From assembly GCA_029912145.1 (NCBI GenBank), contig GCA_029912145.1_4350.1: DNA of 44,747 nt; one strand, 5' to 3'. Source of the DNA: Escherichia coli (GTDB taxonomy: Bacteria > Pseudomonadota > Gammaproteobacteria > Enterobacterales > Enterobacteriaceae). This document shows, in pieces, positions 15,753-36,949 of the stretch. The notes under the pieces were generated by a model that made no database searches, had not been told where the DNA came from, and was given only the letters and a program-made list of their open reading frames with translations. Every line of letters starts with the position of its first letter. Position 1 is the stretch's first letter. Position numbers and translations under genes: made by a program.

Positions 15753-15781
15753 TTGCACACCCCAACATAATAGGGTACTAT
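15753..15781 (+). promoter_or_regulatory. Early-type promoter: -35 TTGCAC, 17 bp spacer, -10 TACTAT(TCA), with dyad AATAG-GGTA-CTATT
   Basis: Read directly, about 30 bp upstream of the first rightward gene. Confidence 0.6.
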
Positions 15782-16864: not shown

Positions 16865-16893
16865 TTGCACACTAAGATAGAATAGGCTACTAT
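16865..16893 (+). promoter_or_regulatory. Early-type promoter: -35 TTGCAC, 17 bp spacer, -10 TACTAT(TCA), dyad AATAG-GCTA-CTATT
   Basis: Same architecture as the 15753 site; follows the terminator. Confidence 0.6.
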
Positions 16894-26932: not shown

Positions 26933-26961
26933 AGGCCCCTTTAAGGGGCCTTAGTTTATTT
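26933..26961. terminator. Terminator hairpin between convergent genes (AGGCCCC-TTTA-AGGGGCCT followed by a T-rich tract)
   Basis: Read directly. Confidence 0.55.
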
Positions 26962-27240
26962 CTTTCCTAATGCTTTCTCGATTGCTCTTTTTGCCAGATT
27001 TAATGGATGGTCCTCATGGTAATCATCGGAAGATACCGCGCAAACATCCTCGACGTAATCGCGAAGCTGGCGAAGTGCTTCAAGTAACTCTGGTGCAGAG
27101 GAAATAAGCTTTGCGTTAGCCAATTTTACTGAGTCATTTTCCCTCATACTCATTACCTCCGCCACATAAACATCACCCGCCCAGATAGCCGTTTCGCAAT
27201 TAACCCATGTACCGTCTGTACCTTTAAATTTGTGTGTCAT
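26956..27240 (-). CDS. Antisense moron gene, hypothetical protein (94 aa)
   Basis: ATG at 27240 with RBS AGGAG; own TTGCAC-type promoter upstream and terminator downstream; opposite strand to the surrounding head genes. Confidence 0.6.
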   Translation of the reverse strand: MTHKFKGTDGTWVNCETAIWAGDVYVAEVMSMRENDSVKLANAKLISSAPELLEALRQLRDYVEDVCAVSSDDYHEDHPLNLAKRAIEKALGKK

Positions 27241-27267: not shown

Positions 27268-27296
27268 ATAGTACCCTATTATATTGGTGTGTGCAA
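27268..27296 (-). promoter_or_regulatory. Early-type promoter on the minus strand: -35 TTGCAC, 17 bp spacer, -10 TACTAT(TCA), dyad AATAG-GGTA-CTATT
   Basis: Near-identical to the 15753 site. Confidence 0.6.
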
Positions 27297-33174: not shown

Positions 33175-34343
33175 ATATGGCTACAACTCCTTTTAAGGGC
33201 GCGAATACCGCGCAATTCTATGTGGCGGAAACTACCCCGGGCGTAACACCGGCTAACCCGGTATGGTCGCCACTGCGTAACACAGGCGGCGTTCCTGCCA
33301 TTACCCGTGACACGCTGACCTCCAACGAACTGGACGGCAGCCGCGAAACTACATCCATCCGCACCGGTAACAAGCAGGTTAGCGGTGAATATGCTATTGA
33401 GCTTAGCTCGAAAAGCCAGGATGACTGGCTAGCCGGGGCTTTAGGCTCTACGTGGCGGGCTGGCGTATCTCTGTCAGGGCTATCGATTACCGTCGCACCG
33501 GCTGGCAAGACGTTCACACGTGCCACCGGCAACTTTATCACTGACAAAGTTAGGGTAGGCGACCTGATTGCGTTTACCGATTTAACTGGCGATAATGCAA
33601 AACCATTTATTGTTACTGCAGTAACGGCTATGGTTGTTACTGGTGCAGGCATCCAACACACCCTGACCACCGAGACAAAAACTAGTAAGGCTAAAACTGG
33701 CTACACGCTGGAAACCGGTAATACGTGTAAGACGTTCTCTATCCTTACCTGGTACAAAGGCCAGTGCGGCGGTACTGACGCGTACACGTTAACCAAAGGC
33801 GTGGAAGTTTCTGGTTTTACCATCGAACAGGCTGTTAACGCGATGGTAACTGGCAGCTTCCCATTCATCGGTCGCAGTCAGGAGATTCTCACCACGCTGC
33901 CGACCGGTTCCAACTTCTCATCTGTTACTTTTGGTGATGAGCCGTTTTCTTCGGTTGACGTTTCCGTGTTCGATGGTTCTACGCCGTTGCGATGCGACAG
34001 TCTGACTATCACCAACGATAACAGCGCGTCCGCGCAGTTCGAACTTGGTAACACTAACGTAGCGTTTGTTGAGCGTAGCCGCGCGGCTAACACTTTCTCC
34101 ATCTCCGGCAAGCTGTACGACATGGTGATGATTCAGAAGTTTATCAACGAACAGCAGGTAGAGATTAACTCTATTCTGGCGGGGGTAAACGGGGCTATGT
34201 CTTTCAGTTTGAAACGCGCAGAGCTTACAGCAGTAACACCAGAGATTGGCGGACCCGAGTCAATCACTCAGTCCATTGAGGGGCAGGCCACCGGCAACCA
34301 GTACCAGTCGTCTATCGTAATTCAACGTATCACCTACGCATAA
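33171..34343 (+). CDS. Major tail protein
   Basis: 390 aa ORF preceding the tail chaperone and tape-measure genes; strong terminator downstream. Confidence 0.7.
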   Translation: MNMATTPFKGANTAQFYVAETTPGVTPANPVWSPLRNTGGVPAITRDTLTSNELDGSRETTSIRTGNKQVSGEYAIELSSKSQDDWLAGALGSTWRAGVSLSGLSITVAPAGKTFTRATGNFITDKVRVGDLIAFTDLTGDNAKPFIVTAVTAMVVTGAGIQHTLTTETKTSKAKTGYTLETGNTCKTFSILTWYKGQCGGTDAYTLTKGVEVSGFTIEQAVNAMVTGSFPFIGRSQEILTTLPTGSNFSSVTFGDEPFSSVDVSVFDGSTPLRCDSLTITNDNSASAQFELGNTNVAFVERSRAANTFSISGKLYDMVMIQKFINEQQVEINSILAGVNGAMSFSLKRAELTAVTPEIGGPESITQSIEGQATGNQYQSSIVIQRITYA

Positions 34344-34347
34344 AACT

Positions 34348-34373
34348 AAGGCCCCTTTCGGGGCCTTTTTCTT
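34348..34373. terminator. Bidirectional terminator between the major tail gene and the antisense cassette (AAGGCCCC-TTTC-GGGGCCTT with T-rich tracts on both sides)
   Basis: Read directly. Confidence 0.65.
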
Positions 34374-34926
34374 ACAAACCTAATTTTAAAGCAATGTCTA
34401 TAACGTTCGATTTAACGTCACCCGGTATGATGTAGGTGTCGTAATCTTTTACACCACTAACATCATACAGATAGCCACGGCTATCGCCGATGAACGTATA
34501 GCCGTCACGATGGAGGCGAACGATTTGCACGTCATGCCCTGCGGCGACGATAGGGGCAACTTCACTGGCGAATCCACCGTCGGACACTACAAAAACTTCG
34601 TCGCCGTCAGGCAAGTTTTCAGCAAGATACTTACCGAAATAATCATCGCCGAATACCGGTTTAATGAATTGCTCAGAAATGGCAATCATTAACTGGCGGC
34701 GGGACAACCCATTAAGAAAACCCTCGGGTTTTTCTTTCCGCGCCCGGTCGTCGTAGCCGTCGAGAAATTCGTGGTAAGCATCCTGGCCTAACGCTGCCAA
34801 AGCAATATTGAACATTGGATTCTTGAAACTGGTAGTTCCTTTCGCAAAGCCCATTTCTACCAGCGCCATAGCAAGCGTGTCTTTCCCGCAACCCGCAGGG
34901 CCATTAAGAATAATTACCTTAGCCAT
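34372..34926 (-). CDS. P-loop nucleotide/polynucleotide kinase (dNMP-kinase-like)
   Basis: Walker A GPAGCGKDT near the N-terminus; 184 aa; last gene of the antisense cassette. Confidence 0.65.
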   Translation of the reverse strand: MAKVIILNGPAGCGKDTLAMALVEMGFAKGTTSFKNPMFNIALAALGQDAYHEFLDGYDDRARKEKPEGFLNGLSRRQLMIAISEQFIKPVFGDDYFGKYLAENLPDGDEVFVVSDGGFASEVAPIVAAGHDVQIVRLHRDGYTFIGDSRGYLYDVSGVKDYDTYIIPGDVKSNVIDIALKLGL

Positions 34927-35414
34927 TATTTATCGCTCCCGTGTGGTTTTAAGTGTGTAGAGTTCCCGTTACAGTCGTATTCGGTAACTGCGTGTGCGGT
35001 TATGCCGAGGTCACGGAAATGCTTTATTACCGCTGGAGAGTCGTCGAACGCACACAAGATTCTTTCCAGTCCGAAAGCACGCAACACCTCTTCTTTAATT
35101 ACGATGTCTTTTCTGTTGTCGTGTTTGCTGCGCATGATTAGCGTGTCAAACCTAACGTTATTTTCTCGTAACCATTCGCGAGTCTCCTCCTCAGCGTCAT
35201 CACTTCGCCCGGTAAGGATAATTATAGTAAGTCCGGAATGCCACAGTACGCTACACAAATGGATATTGTCGTATATCGGAGCGTCATCTTTGCAGGCCAT
35301 GTTAAATGGCTTCCACGCCCACGTTTCTCCGTAGTTATCTTTTGGTAACAGGTGTAAGCGATGGGTACCGTCGGCCAATGTCCCGTCTAAATCGAAAATT
35401 ACAATATCTTTCAT
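34926..35414 (-). CDS. HAD-superfamily phosphatase resembling the 3-prime-phosphatase domain of T4 polynucleotide kinase
   Basis: N-terminal DxDGT motif (IVIFDLDGTLA) and downstream segments resembling the T4 Pnk phosphatase domain as recalled; 162 aa; not alignment-verified. Confidence 0.65.
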   Translation of the reverse strand: MKDIVIFDLDGTLADGTHRLHLLPKDNYGETWAWKPFNMACKDDAPIYDNIHLCSVLWHSGLTIIILTGRSDDAEEETREWLRENNVRFDTLIMRSKHDNRKDIVIKEEVLRAFGLERILCAFDDSPAVIKHFRDLGITAHAVTEYDCNGNSTHLKPHGSDK

Positions 35415-36541
35415 CCCAGCATCTCCGGTGAAATAGTTAAACGTGCGACCTCGCCATATTCGGCGCTATAAGTAATTACATTTGCACTGCGGCCCGACAT
35501 CCATCCGCCGCGAGAGGCGTAGGCGTCTTTAGCCGCTAAGGTGCGGTGTTGCTCAACAATCATGTTACGGCTTTCTACAATCTTCTGGTGGTGCAGATGG
35601 CCTACGTGGGCGTAGCTGTAAACACTCTCGCCGAACGCTTTACGGAACTTGGCAATCATAACCGGTTCGATAGCGTCGAATCGTGCTTTATGCCCGTGAT
35701 GGAAGAACAGCGTCGTTTTGCCGTGTTGCACCATCTTGTAAACATCCGGCGACGTATCGACGAATACACGAGGCTCGTTGTCGTACAGTGTGCTGAACAT
35801 CTCCGCCAGCCAAATCATCCCGGATTCGTCGTGGTTCCCCTGAACTATAAGCAAGCGAACAGTTTTATGCTTAACCAGAGCCATATCAACAACACGGCGG
35901 ACCATGCGAATCATGTAGCGGACAAGTTTCTGGTAACGCGTGTCGGCGTCAAGGACATGACCACTCGCCGGTGTAACGGCGTCAAGACTATCGAAGTGAG
36001 CTAAGTCGCCAAGAAGATTAATAACCCCCGTACCTGCATCCGGTGCTTTCTGAAACGCAGCATCAAGCCAACGAGAGAATAAGTCCTCCGCGATTTTCAT
36101 ATCCCAGTCGTCGCCGCTCTCGTCAGCCCAGGCTAACATACCGAGATGGAAATCAGATACCGTGTAAAGATTGAGTAGTTTATCGTCACGTTTGGCTCGT
36201 GCCGGTTTAACAGGCGCAACGGGCGTAATCTCTGACTTCATGCCCTCTATTACGGCTTTCATCAATTCAACCTGACGTTCGGCATCAGCGTCGGTCTTAA
36301 CCCATTGCAACTTAGTGTTGCCGAACTCGTCCACCAGGGACGACGTTCCTTTAATCTTGTAACCGTCTGGTACAAGGTGACTAACGTCGCGCCCGTGGCC
36401 TACGCCTTTCTTAGCCAGCTTCGCTTTACGGATTCGGATAACGCGGTCTGAGATTCCGTATTTACGGGCGATATCGATATTCTTCATCCCGGCGTTCAAT
36501 TCTTCCTGTAATTGCTCGTCGGTTATTTTCTTCTGGGCCAT
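35411..36541 (-). CDS. Metallophosphoesterase (calcineurin-like, Mre11/SbcD-type motifs) with N-terminal HTH-like segment
   Basis: Motifs DFHLG, GDLAHFD, GNHDE, GHLHH; start at the internal ATG (36541) with RBS GAGGAA; track ORF extends to 36646. Confidence 0.7.
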   Translation of the reverse strand: MAQKKITDEQLQEELNAGMKNIDIARKYGISDRVIRIRKAKLAKKGVGHGRDVSHLVPDGYKIKGTSSLVDEFGNTKLQWVKTDADAERQVELMKAVIEGMKSEITPVAPVKPARAKRDDKLLNLYTVSDFHLGMLAWADESGDDWDMKIAEDLFSRWLDAAFQKAPDAGTGVINLLGDLAHFDSLDAVTPASGHVLDADTRYQKLVRYMIRMVRRVVDMALVKHKTVRLLIVQGNHDESGMIWLAEMFSTLYDNEPRVFVDTSPDVYKMVQHGKTTLFFHHGHKARFDAIEPVMIAKFRKAFGESVYSYAHVGHLHHQKIVESRNMIVEQHRTLAAKDAYASRGGWMSGRSANVITYSAEYGEVARLTISPEMLG

Positions 36542-36579
36542 GCTTACTTCCTCGTGTTTAGGATTTGTCTTATAGTAGC

Positions 36580-36771
36580 CTACTTCTCTTTCACGTTCGA
36601 GTTGCAAGCCCAGATTAAAATGAATACCCACGGCAACAGAATCCACCCGAGAAATAAGTTAGCCATGAATATCGCCAGCTTTGCTTTATGGTTACGCATA
36701 TGTGCCACCAAAAACGGGATAAAATAAACGGCTACAAAAATAATTAAGAAGAACATAGTGATACCGGTCAT
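36580..36771 (-). CDS. Superinfection-immunity (Imm)-like small membrane protein
   Basis: Motif RNHKAKLAIFMANLFLGWILLPWVFILIWA matches the Imm-superinfection family signature as recalled; RBS AGGAG before ATG at 36771. Confidence 0.55.
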   Translation of the reverse strand: MTGITMFFLIIFVAVYFIPFLVAHMRNHKAKLAIFMANLFLGWILLPWVFILIWACNSNVKEK

Positions 36772-36813
36772 AACATAACTCCTGATTTGAGATAACATCG
36801 TTGGTGTAAGTGA

Positions 36814-36842
36814 ATAGTACGCTATTATATTGGGGAGTGCAA
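36814..36842 (-). promoter_or_regulatory. Early-type promoter on the minus strand driving the cassette: -35 TTGCAC, 17 bp spacer, -10 TACTAT(TCA), dyad AATAG-CGTA-CTATT
   Basis: Near-identical to the 15753, 16865 and 27296 sites. Confidence 0.6.
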
Positions 36843-36949
36843 GTAGTGTGCTAGAATAATTTTGCGCCTAGTGTCGCACACGAAAAGCGGGTGGTTCCCG
36901 TCTGGCGCATTTCCTTTAACCAGTAACCTCTTAACCAAAGGATTAAAGA

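What the first reader, a model, noticed from the sequence alone, without database searches (positions are those of the whole stretch)
34348..36850. Antisense four-gene cassette in the tail module: Imm-like protein, HTH-metallophosphoesterase, Pnk-type HAD phosphatase and P-loop kinase under an early-type promoter
Seen in sequence: four minus-strand genes sit between the major tail gene and the tail chaperone genes, bounded by a TTGCAC-N17-TACTAT promoter (about 36814-36842) and a bidirectional terminator (34348-34373). The products carry a superinfection-immunity-like membrane motif, the four metallophosphoesterase motifs (DFHLG, GDLAHFD, GNHDE, GHLHH) behind an HTH-like N-terminus, a DxDGT HAD motif, and a GPAGCGKDT P-loop. 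Established knowledge: T4 polynucleotide kinase combines a P-loop 5-prime kinase with a DxDGT HAD 3-prime phosphatase, and bacterial Pnkp adds a metallophosphoesterase; such end-healing enzymes repair tRNA cut by anticodon nucleases. Inference: this may be a split end-healing or anti-defence module co-expressed with superinfection exclusion. An alternative is nucleotide-pool metabolism (dNMP kinase plus nucleotidase). No ligase gene is visible in the window.
Basis: partly seen in the sequence, partly recalled or inferred. Interest (0 to 1): 0.8.

Follow-up and report, generated by a model that had tools for sequence, protein, structure and literature searches.

The report
Phage nuclease, phosphatase, dNMP-kinase operon
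The four backwards-facing genes inside this coliphage's tail-gene block are real. They are a known, already annotated set (exclusion protein, nuclease-like enzyme, phosphatase, nucleotide kinase) that most likely feeds DNA building blocks to the phage rather than repairing cut RNA.

Summary
The window is a near-complete Kagunavirus (Guernseyvirinae) genome, 99.9% identical over the cassette to published coliphages. All described features exist:
- four minus-strand genes between the major tail gene and the tail chaperones
- every quoted motif
- a terminator hairpin
- a TTGCAC-N17-TACTAT promoter, which is one of four near-identical copies in the genome and is conserved in Salmonella Jerseyvirus

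The "split end-healing" reading is only partly right.
- **HAD protein:** it does belong to the T4 Pnkp phosphatase family, and the catalytic residues are conserved.
- **P-loop kinase:** it is a T4 gp1-type dNMP kinase, not a Pnk-type kinase (best fold match 1DEK, same PHROG as gp1).
- **HTH-metallophosphoesterase:** it falls in the Mre11/SbcD/PolD-DP1 nuclease clade, not the lambda-phosphatase/Pnkp clade.
- **Ligase and tRNAs:** the genome has neither.

The MPE-HAD-kinase trio recurs in the same order in Webervirus and Gajwadongvirus. Distant members of the kinase family sit beside dUTPase, ThyX, RNR, SHMT and ThyA. A stand-alone HAD of this subfamily is coupled to nrdB in an RB49-like phage that also carries pseT.

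The best reading is a DNA/nucleotide-supply operon plus superinfection exclusion. GenBank already annotates it this way, and a 2026 Drexlerviridae paper proposes the same. Interest is low.

The parts
34348..34367 (.). G+C-rich hairpin (AAGGCCCC-TTTC-GGGGCCTT) shared by the convergent major tail gene and the cassette. It is terminator-like on both strands.
   Evidence: 8-bp stem with 6 G-C pairs. A T-run follows on the + strand; the tail on the - strand is weaker. Sequence.
34372..34926 (-). 184-aa P-loop kinase of the T4 gp1 dNMP-kinase family (GKDT P-loop). It is the last gene of the operon, and its start overlaps the HAD stop codon.
34926..35414 (-). 162-aa stand-alone HAD phosphatase of the T4 Pnkp phosphatase family (DLDGT). 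It overlaps the MPE stop codon by 4 nt.
   Evidence: Pfam HAD_PNKP 3e-20 and Acid_phosphat_B 2e-9. PDB Pnkp1 4xrp at 4e-6 and T4 Pnk 1ltq at 2e-3. Catalytic residues aligned to T4 Pnkp.
35411..36541 (-). 376-aa protein: an N-terminal helix-turn-helix (about residues 8-44), a beta-hairpin/helix linker, then a binuclear metallophosphoesterase core of the nuclease clade.
36580..36771 (-). 63-aa protein of the superinfection-immunity (Imm) family with two hydrophobic helices. It is the first gene of the operon.
   Evidence: Pfam Imm_superinfect 1.8e-13, 50.6 bits against a cut-off of 27.9. PHROG 1039. AGGAG ribosome-binding site before the ATG at 36771. It is the most variable gene of the cassette.
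36814..36842 (-). Promoter TTGCAC-N17-TACTAT with a conserved spacer. It is one of four near-identical copies in the genome.
   Evidence: 4 matches against 0.27 expected; alignment of the four copies. TTGCA and TA.TAT are invariant across four Kagunavirus genomes and Jerseyvirus SETP7.

Best explanation
This is a compact operon transcribed by the host RNA polymerase and embedded antisense in the tail module of a Kagunavirus. It combines a superinfection-exclusion membrane protein with three DNA/nucleotide-metabolism enzymes:
1. an HTH-tethered metallophosphoesterase of the Mre11/SbcD/PolD-DP1 nuclease type, which is a core gene of several siphovirus families
2. a Pnkp-family HAD phosphatase that removes phosphate from nucleotides or 3'-phosphorylated DNA ends
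3. a T4 gp1-type dNMP kinase that converts 5'-dNMPs to dNDPs

The three enzyme genes overlap at their start and stop codons, which suggests translational coupling (inference). They form a module that recurs in unrelated phages.

Shown here: the family assignments, the conserved catalytic residues, the synteny and the promoter family.

Inferred: the enzymes work as a supply line that turns DNA breakdown products into precursors for phage DNA synthesis. The nuclease releases nucleotides or oligonucleotides, the phosphatase clears 3'-phosphates or unwanted nucleotides, and the kinase recharges the dNMPs. Also inferred: the Imm-like protein blocks DNA entry by later-arriving phages. It is not an RNA end-healing system.
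For: - **Kinase neighbourhoods.** Across 76 IMG/VR loci (32 kinase clusters), distant family members sit next to dUTPase, ThyX plus RNR, SHMT, thymidylate synthase and an NT5C-type HAD nucleotidase.
- **HAD.** The T4 Pnkp catalytic residues are conserved. It also scores above the cut-off for class B acid phosphatase; in my recollection (not tested here) members of that family are nucleotidases. An RB49-like phage carries a stand-alone HAD of this subfamily (43% identity) overlapping nrdB, in addition to a full pseT.
- **MPE.** Nuclease-clade fold.
- **Synteny.** The trio keeps the same order in Kagunavirus, Webervirus and Gajwadongvirus.
- **Second MPE family.** A different HTH-MPE family precedes (HAD-)kinase in contigs with a T7-like gene layout.
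- **Literature.** T1 and TLS degrade the host chromosome and reuse its nucleotides, and the nuclease is unidentified (PMC11447400). A pangenome study of 522 Drexlerviridae found PNK and dNMP kinase to be the commonest genes after the 'DNA repair exonuclease' and proposed that they enhance nucleotide supply (PMC13164509).
- **Promoter.** Four copies; two head the block of small ORFs at 15.8-17 kb that I presume to be early.
Against: - No activity has been measured for any of the four proteins.
- In T1, Dhillonvirus, Vibrio phages and Jerseyvirus the MPE occurs without HAD or kinase. Its link to the other two may therefore be shared timing rather than a shared pathway.
- A Pnkp-type 3'-phosphatase has no obvious substrate in a pathway that yields 5'-dNMPs.
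- Kinase-ligase adjacency in about 5 of 32 clusters also fits DNA end processing.
- In the only Kagunavirus RNA-seq time course, the Imm homologue peaked in the last class, together with the DNA polymerase and methylase genes. 'Early' timing is therefore unproven.
Confidence: 0.55

Rival explanations
1. Split end-healing module. The HAD removes 3'-phosphates and the kinase phosphorylates 5' ends of broken RNA or DNA. The MPE trims ends or opens cyclic phosphates. Sealing is done by a host ligase, or by a phage DNA ligase where one is present.
For: - The HAD has every T4 Pnkp phosphatase catalytic residue, and its best PDB hit is the RNA-repair enzyme Pnkp1.
- HAD and kinase form a conserved, overlapping gene pair in 7 of 32 kinase clusters.
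- In Gajwadongvirus the trio is followed directly by an ATP-dependent DNA ligase.
- By its abstract, P. putida MPE nuclease leaves a mixture of 3'-PO4 and 3'-OH ends (PMC7826289, listed); 3'-PO4 ends would need a 3'-phosphatase.
Against: - The kinase is gp1-type, not Pnk-type, by fold and by family.
- The MPE is not in the lambda-phosphatase/Pnkp clade.
- There is no ligase and no tRNA gene in this genome, nor a ligase in the flanks of the HAD-kinase or Webervirus loci.
- An RB49-like phage keeps this HAD subfamily next to nrdB while also having pseT and an RNA ligase elsewhere.
- The kinase family's neighbours are dNTP-synthesis genes.
Confidence: 0.12
2. There is no shared pathway. The HTH-MPE is a core replication or recombination nuclease (or a DNA-bound regulator). 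HAD plus kinase is an independent accessory nucleotide-pool pair that landed beside it, and adjacency reflects only co-expression from the same promoter.
For: - The MPE is far more conserved than its neighbours: mean 97.5% identity against 89% for the HAD, 92% for the kinase and 79% for Imm.
- It is persistent in 508 of 522 Drexlerviridae.
- It occurs alone in T1, Bas84, Vibrio phages and Jerseyvirus.
- In Tlsvirus-like contigs the HAD and kinase have no MPE within 6 kb.
Against: - The same MPE-HAD-kinase order, with overlapping or closely spaced reading frames, appears in three unrelated phage families.
- A second, non-alignable HTH-MPE family occupies the same position upstream of (HAD-)kinase in contigs with a T7-like gene layout.
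Confidence: 0.25
3. Counter-defence against nucleotide-based immunity. The enzymes remove or convert nucleotide danger signals, or replenish pools depleted by host dNTP-degrading defence systems.
For: - A host PUA-Calcineurin-HAD defence system senses m6-dAMP released by phage-driven chromosome breakdown and depletes dNTPs (bioRxiv 10.64898/2026.01.15.699771). A fast phage dNMP kinase could in principle blunt such a signal.
- The cassette sits with a superinfection-exclusion gene in a moron-like antisense slot.
Against: - No PADLOC match.
- The MPE is a persistent core gene rather than a variable accessory gene.
- No experimental link exists.
- The idea is purely analogical.
Confidence: 0.06

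Closest known systems
T4 gp1 deoxynucleoside monophosphate kinase (PDB 1DEK)
   Different: Only 20% identity. It is shorter (184 aa against 241 aa). HMMER finds no match to 1DEK by sequence or by profile. Substrate range is unknown.
T4 polynucleotide kinase-phosphatase (pseT), phosphatase domain, and Capnocytophaga Pnkp1
   Same: Pfam HAD_PNKP. The nucleophile, acid/base, Mg-binding and phosphate-binding residues are all conserved.
   Different: It is stand-alone, with no fused Pnk-type kinase. It has a 16-residue insert after motif I that T4 lacks. It is paired with a gp1-type kinase. A closer homologue (43% identity) sits beside nrdB in an RB49-like phage that also has pseT.
Mre11 / SbcD / archaeal PolD DP1 metallophosphoesterase nucleases
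   Different: It has an N-terminal HTH domain. No Rad50/SbcC partner gene is present. Sequence-profile matches to PDB nucleases are insignificant (E 0.3-1). Nuclease activity is untested.
Drexlerviridae 'DNA repair exonuclease - polynucleotide kinase - dNMP kinase' block (KanT1 pangenome study, PMC13164509)
   Same: Orthologous trio in the same order, with 42-56% protein identity. That paper proposes the same nucleotide-supply interpretation.
   Different: In Drexlerviridae the block sits at the end of the replication module, before the lysis genes. Here it is antisense inside the tail module, preceded by an Imm-family gene and driven by its own promoter.
T4 Imm / Pfam Imm_superinfect small membrane proteins
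   Same: Pfam match above the gathering score. It is small and has two hydrophobic helices.
   Different: Exclusion activity is untested. The gene is highly variable, or replaced, among close relatives.

Membership tests
T4-type Pnkp end-healing enzyme (kinase plus phosphatase) | DxDxT HAD 3'-phosphatase with the Pnkp catalytic set (Asp nucleophile, Asp acid/base, Ser/Thr, Lys, Mg-binding Asp) | tested here: met
   D8, D10, T68, K107 and D125 align with T4 D165, D167, S211, K258 and D278. The roles of these residues are taken from PMC3592404. Pfam HAD_PNKP 3e-20.
T4-type Pnkp end-healing enzyme (kinase plus phosphatase) | P-loop polynucleotide 5'-kinase of the Pnk family | tested here: not met
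T4-type Pnkp end-healing enzyme (kinase plus phosphatase) | Partner ligase to seal the healed ends | tested here: not met
   No ligase among the annotated genes of the 99.9%-identical genome, nor in the Pfam scan of the large replication ORFs. All remaining ORFs are under 140 aa.
T4-type Pnkp end-healing enzyme (kinase plus phosphatase) | Activity on polynucleotide 5'-OH and 3'-phosphate ends | not testable with these tools
   Requires enzyme assays.
Bacterial Pnkp/Hen1 RNA repair system | Metallophosphoesterase phosphatase module of the lambda-phosphatase clade | tested here: not met
Bacterial Pnkp/Hen1 RNA repair system | Ligase domain and Hen1 methyltransferase partner | tested here: not met
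   None is encoded in the genome.
T4 gp1-type dNMP kinase family | NMP-kinase fold with a GxxxxGKD P-loop and closest similarity to gp1 | tested here: met
T4 gp1-type dNMP kinase family | Genomic association with dNTP-synthesis genes | tested here: met
   dUTPase, ThyX, RNR, SHMT, ThyA and an NT5C-type HAD lie adjacent to distant family members.
T4 gp1-type dNMP kinase family | Phosphorylation of dNMPs to dNDPs | not testable with these tools
   Requires enzyme assays.
Mre11/SbcD-type metallophosphoesterase nuclease | Binuclear MPE motifs I-V (DxH, GD, GNH[DE], H, GHxH) | tested here: met
   D130, H132, D179, N236, H237, H282 and H317 are invariant, and H315 is conserved in at least 90% of the 33 homologues.
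Mre11/SbcD-type metallophosphoesterase nuclease | Fold closest to the nuclease members of the superfamily | tested here: met
   DP1 15.8, Mre11 15.3, SbcD 14.9. The margin over generic phosphodiesterases (13.5) is modest.
Mre11/SbcD-type metallophosphoesterase nuclease | Rad50/SbcC ATPase partner | tested here: not met
   No such gene in the genome.
Imm_superinfect (PF14373) | Pfam match above the gathering score; small protein with two hydrophobic helices | tested here: met
   50.6 bits against a cut-off of 27.9. Two hydrophobic stretches are visible in the translation.
Imm_superinfect (PF14373) | Exclusion of superinfecting phage | not testable with these tools
   Requires plating assays.

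The most novel reading that the evidence does not exclude
The HTH-MPE, HAD and gp1-type kinase form a self-contained route from host DNA to dNDPs. In this reading the HTH-MPE is the long-unidentified nuclease that destroys the host chromosome in T1-like and Kagunavirus infections, and the Pnkp-type HAD clears the 3'-phosphate ends or 3'-phosphorylated nucleotides that such an MPE nuclease leaves behind.
Probability: 0.2. Interest if true: 0.5.

Novelty: already known. Interest (0 to 1): 0.22.

Why it matters
The cassette is present, under the same gene names, in hundreds of deposited phage genomes. The MPE, HAD and kinase genes each occur in 1500 to 2400 phage records. Confirming it here adds no new kind of system.

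What remains open is the biochemistry. No member of the stand-alone HAD subfamily, this gp1-like kinase clade or the HTH-MPE family appears to have been assayed. T1-like phages are known to recycle host DNA using enzymes that have not been identified. Showing that this trio does that job would close an old gap in T1 biology and correct the widespread 'polynucleotide kinase' and 'DNA repair exonuclease' labels. This matters to phage specialists but is not a conceptual surprise.

Tried and rejected
- **PDB sequence searches, kinase.** Single-sequence and profile searches gave only generic P-loop matches to AAA ATPases. The assignment needed the structure model.
- **PDB sequence searches, MPE.** These gave only weak HTH and MPE matches.
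- **PADLOC.** No match for any of the four proteins.
- **Generic promoter scan.** It missed the cassette promoter. A pattern search found the four-copy family, and a canonical TTGAC-N-TAnnAT pattern found nothing.
- **Second HTH-MPE family.** hhalign between the family from contigs with a T7-like layout and this one aligned only the HTH, at 18% probability. I do not call them homologous.
- **SbcD elsewhere in the genome.** I checked whether the phage's other 'exonuclease' is SbcD-like, as one paper states for Golestan. In this window it is a PD-(D/E)XK DUF2800 protein.
- **Base composition.** There is no sign that the cassette is foreign.
- **Transcription timing.** The K1B4 time course puts the Imm homologue in the last-peaking class, together with polA and the methylases. 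That classification is too coarse to settle early versus late.
- **Calcineurin-CE/HAD defence analogy.** Kept only as a low-probability rival.
- **Caveat.** For Pnk, the T4-like APCEc01 gene taken from GenBank gave the same result.
Full report
**What the window is.** Megablast of 34300-36900 finds 327 phage records. The best are Escherichia phages vB_EcoS-phiEc4 and vB_Eco_K-02, at 99.9% identity over the full length. The relatives that carry taxonomy are Kagunavirus, subfamily Guernseyvirinae. In those records the four genes are already annotated as 'superinfection immunity protein', 'DNA repair exonuclease' (or calcineurin-like phosphoesterase), 'polynucleotide kinase' (or acid phosphatase) and 'deoxynucleoside monophosphate kinase'. 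K1ind1, deposited in 2010, already noted similarity of the three enzyme genes to Era103 and T1.

- The four minus-strand ORFs, the quoted motifs and the flanking major tail, tail chaperone and tape-measure genes are all as described.
- The probable starts are the ATG at 36771 for the Imm-like protein (63 aa, AGGAG ribosome-binding site) and the ATG at 36541 for the MPE protein. The latter gives 376 aa, the length of nearly all homologues.
- The MPE, HAD and kinase reading frames overlap at their junctions, which suggests translational coupling (inference).
- The hairpin at 34348-34367 scores as terminator-like on both strands.

**The promoter.** TTGCAC-N17-TACTAT at 36814-36842 matches only 7 of 12 consensus positions, so the generic scan missed it. 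The pattern occurs four times in the window, against 0.27 expected; no shuffle out of 100 reaches four. The four copies share about 36 nt, including the spacer. Two of them head the plus-strand block of small ORFs at 15.8-17 kb, which I presume to be early genes; this is not shown. One drives a 94-aa antisense ORF in the head module. The fourth drives this cassette. Both hexamers are conserved in Jerseyvirus SETP7. 'Same promoter class as the small-ORF block' is therefore shown; actual timing is not. In the one Kagunavirus RNA-seq time course, the Imm homologue fell in the last-peaking class, together with the DNA polymerase and methylases.

**The HAD protein is Pnkp-type.** Pfam HAD_PNKP scores 3e-20, and Acid_phosphat_B also passes its cut-off. 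The best PDB hits are Pnkp1 and T4 Pnk. In an alignment with T4 and a T4-like Pnk, residues D8, D10, T68, K107 and D125 match the T4 nucleophile, acid/base, Ser211, Lys258 and Mg-binding Asp278. R19, R70, D103 and D124 match R176, R213, D254 and D277.

However, a closer stand-alone homologue (43% identity) overlaps nrdB in an RB49-like phage that also has pseT and an RNA ligase. This suggests that the stand-alone subfamily has a nucleotide-metabolism role distinct from end-healing.

The protein occurs in 2054 phage records: Guernseyvirinae, Dhillonvirus, Drexlerviridae including T1, and Vibrio, Rhodobacter and Campylobacter phages. It is the most conserved gene of the cassette, with mean identity 97.5% against 92% for the kinase, 89% for the HAD and 79% for Imm.

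**Comparative context.**
- The MPE-HAD-kinase trio occurs in the same order in Webervirus and in the podovirus genus Gajwadongvirus (ECBP5, MR4). There the proteins are 53%, 56% and 43% identical to those in this window, and a DNA ligase follows.
- Jerseyvirus has only Imm plus MPE in the same antisense slot. T1, a Dhillonvirus and Vibrio phages have the MPE alone.
- In 76 IMG/VR loci carrying the kinase (32 clusters at 60% identity), HAD-kinase adjacency occurs in 7 clusters and the full trio in 4.
- A second HTH-MPE family, not alignable to this one, sits upstream of (HAD-)kinase in contigs with a T7-like gene layout.
- Distant kinases lie next to dUTPase, ThyX plus RNR, SHMT, thymidylate synthase, an NT5C-type HAD and, in a few cases, a DNA ligase.

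**Absences.** There is no ligase, no tRNA gene and no PADLOC match.

**Interpretation.** The most economical reading is an operon for DNA and nucleotide supply plus superinfection exclusion.
- The literature supports the frame. T1 and TLS degrade the host chromosome and reuse its nucleotides, and the responsible enzymes are unidentified (PMC11447400).
- A 2026 Drexlerviridae pangenome study noted that PNK and dNMP kinase are the commonest genes after the 'DNA repair exonuclease', and proposed that they enhance nucleotide supply (PMC13164509).
- The step from 'families and synteny' to 'a pipeline' is inference.
- A split end-healing system remains possible but is disfavoured: two of its three defining parts fail the membership test.
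- Another possibility is that the MPE is a core replication or recombination nuclease merely co-expressed with an accessory HAD-kinase pair.

**Verdict.** The cassette is already known and annotated, and interest is low. The residual value lies in the uncharacterised biochemistry of a very widespread phage gene trio.

Noticed in passing
window 36861-36925 (+): Rfam int-alpA RNA (RF02996) matches just above its gathering score (36.6 against 35.8 bits, full model). The match lies in the conserved leader between a possible extended -10 promoter (TGcTAGAAT, 36849-36857) and the tail chaperone gene. The homologous position scores 31.8 bits in phage EM1 and 26.2 bits (partial) in Jerseyvirus SETP7. 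The fold z-score is only -1.0. Function is unknown.
   Followed up: partly
window 15753-15781 (+), 16865-16893 (+), 27268-27296 (-), 36814-36842 (-): A four-copy promoter family with about 36 conserved nt (TTGCAC, a conserved spacer containing a TATAAT-like hexamer, TACTAT, then TCAcTTA). The conserved spacer suggests that a regulator binds there, or that two -10 elements overlap.
   Followed up: partly
window 26956-27240 (-): A second antisense gene inside the structural region: a 94-aa ORF in the head module, driven by the promoter copy at 27268-27296. Its function was not examined.
   Followed up: no
L051 4710-5681, also L050, L056, L057, L059, L078, L045, L046 (IMG/VR contigs): A different HTH-plus-metallophosphoesterase protein of about 325-375 aa (Pfam Metallophos 8e-6). 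It sits directly upstream of (HAD-)kinase and, by its N-terminal sequence (not scanned), a T7-like RNA polymerase gene. It is not alignable to the Kagunavirus MPE beyond the HTH.
   Followed up: partly
L090 3998-4474 (Escherichia phage PHB13, RB49-like): A stand-alone HAD '3'-phosphatase' 43% identical to the window's HAD. It overlaps the end of nrdB, in a genome that also encodes a full pseT and an RNA ligase a few kb away.
   Followed up: partly
L019, L020, L023, L025, L026 (IMG/VR Kagunavirus contigs), slot equivalent to window 36580-36771: The Imm-family gene is not detectable by tblastn in 5 of 16 close relatives and is only 68-72% identical in most others, while the adjacent MPE stays at 94% or more. 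The exclusion gene appears to be swapped or fast-evolving.
   Followed up: no
L006 4628-4858 (Salmonella phage SETP7): In Jerseyvirus, the place occupied by HAD plus kinase in Kagunavirus holds a 76-aa ORF. I printed its translation but did not compare it with the HAD or kinase, and it was not characterised.
   Followed up: no
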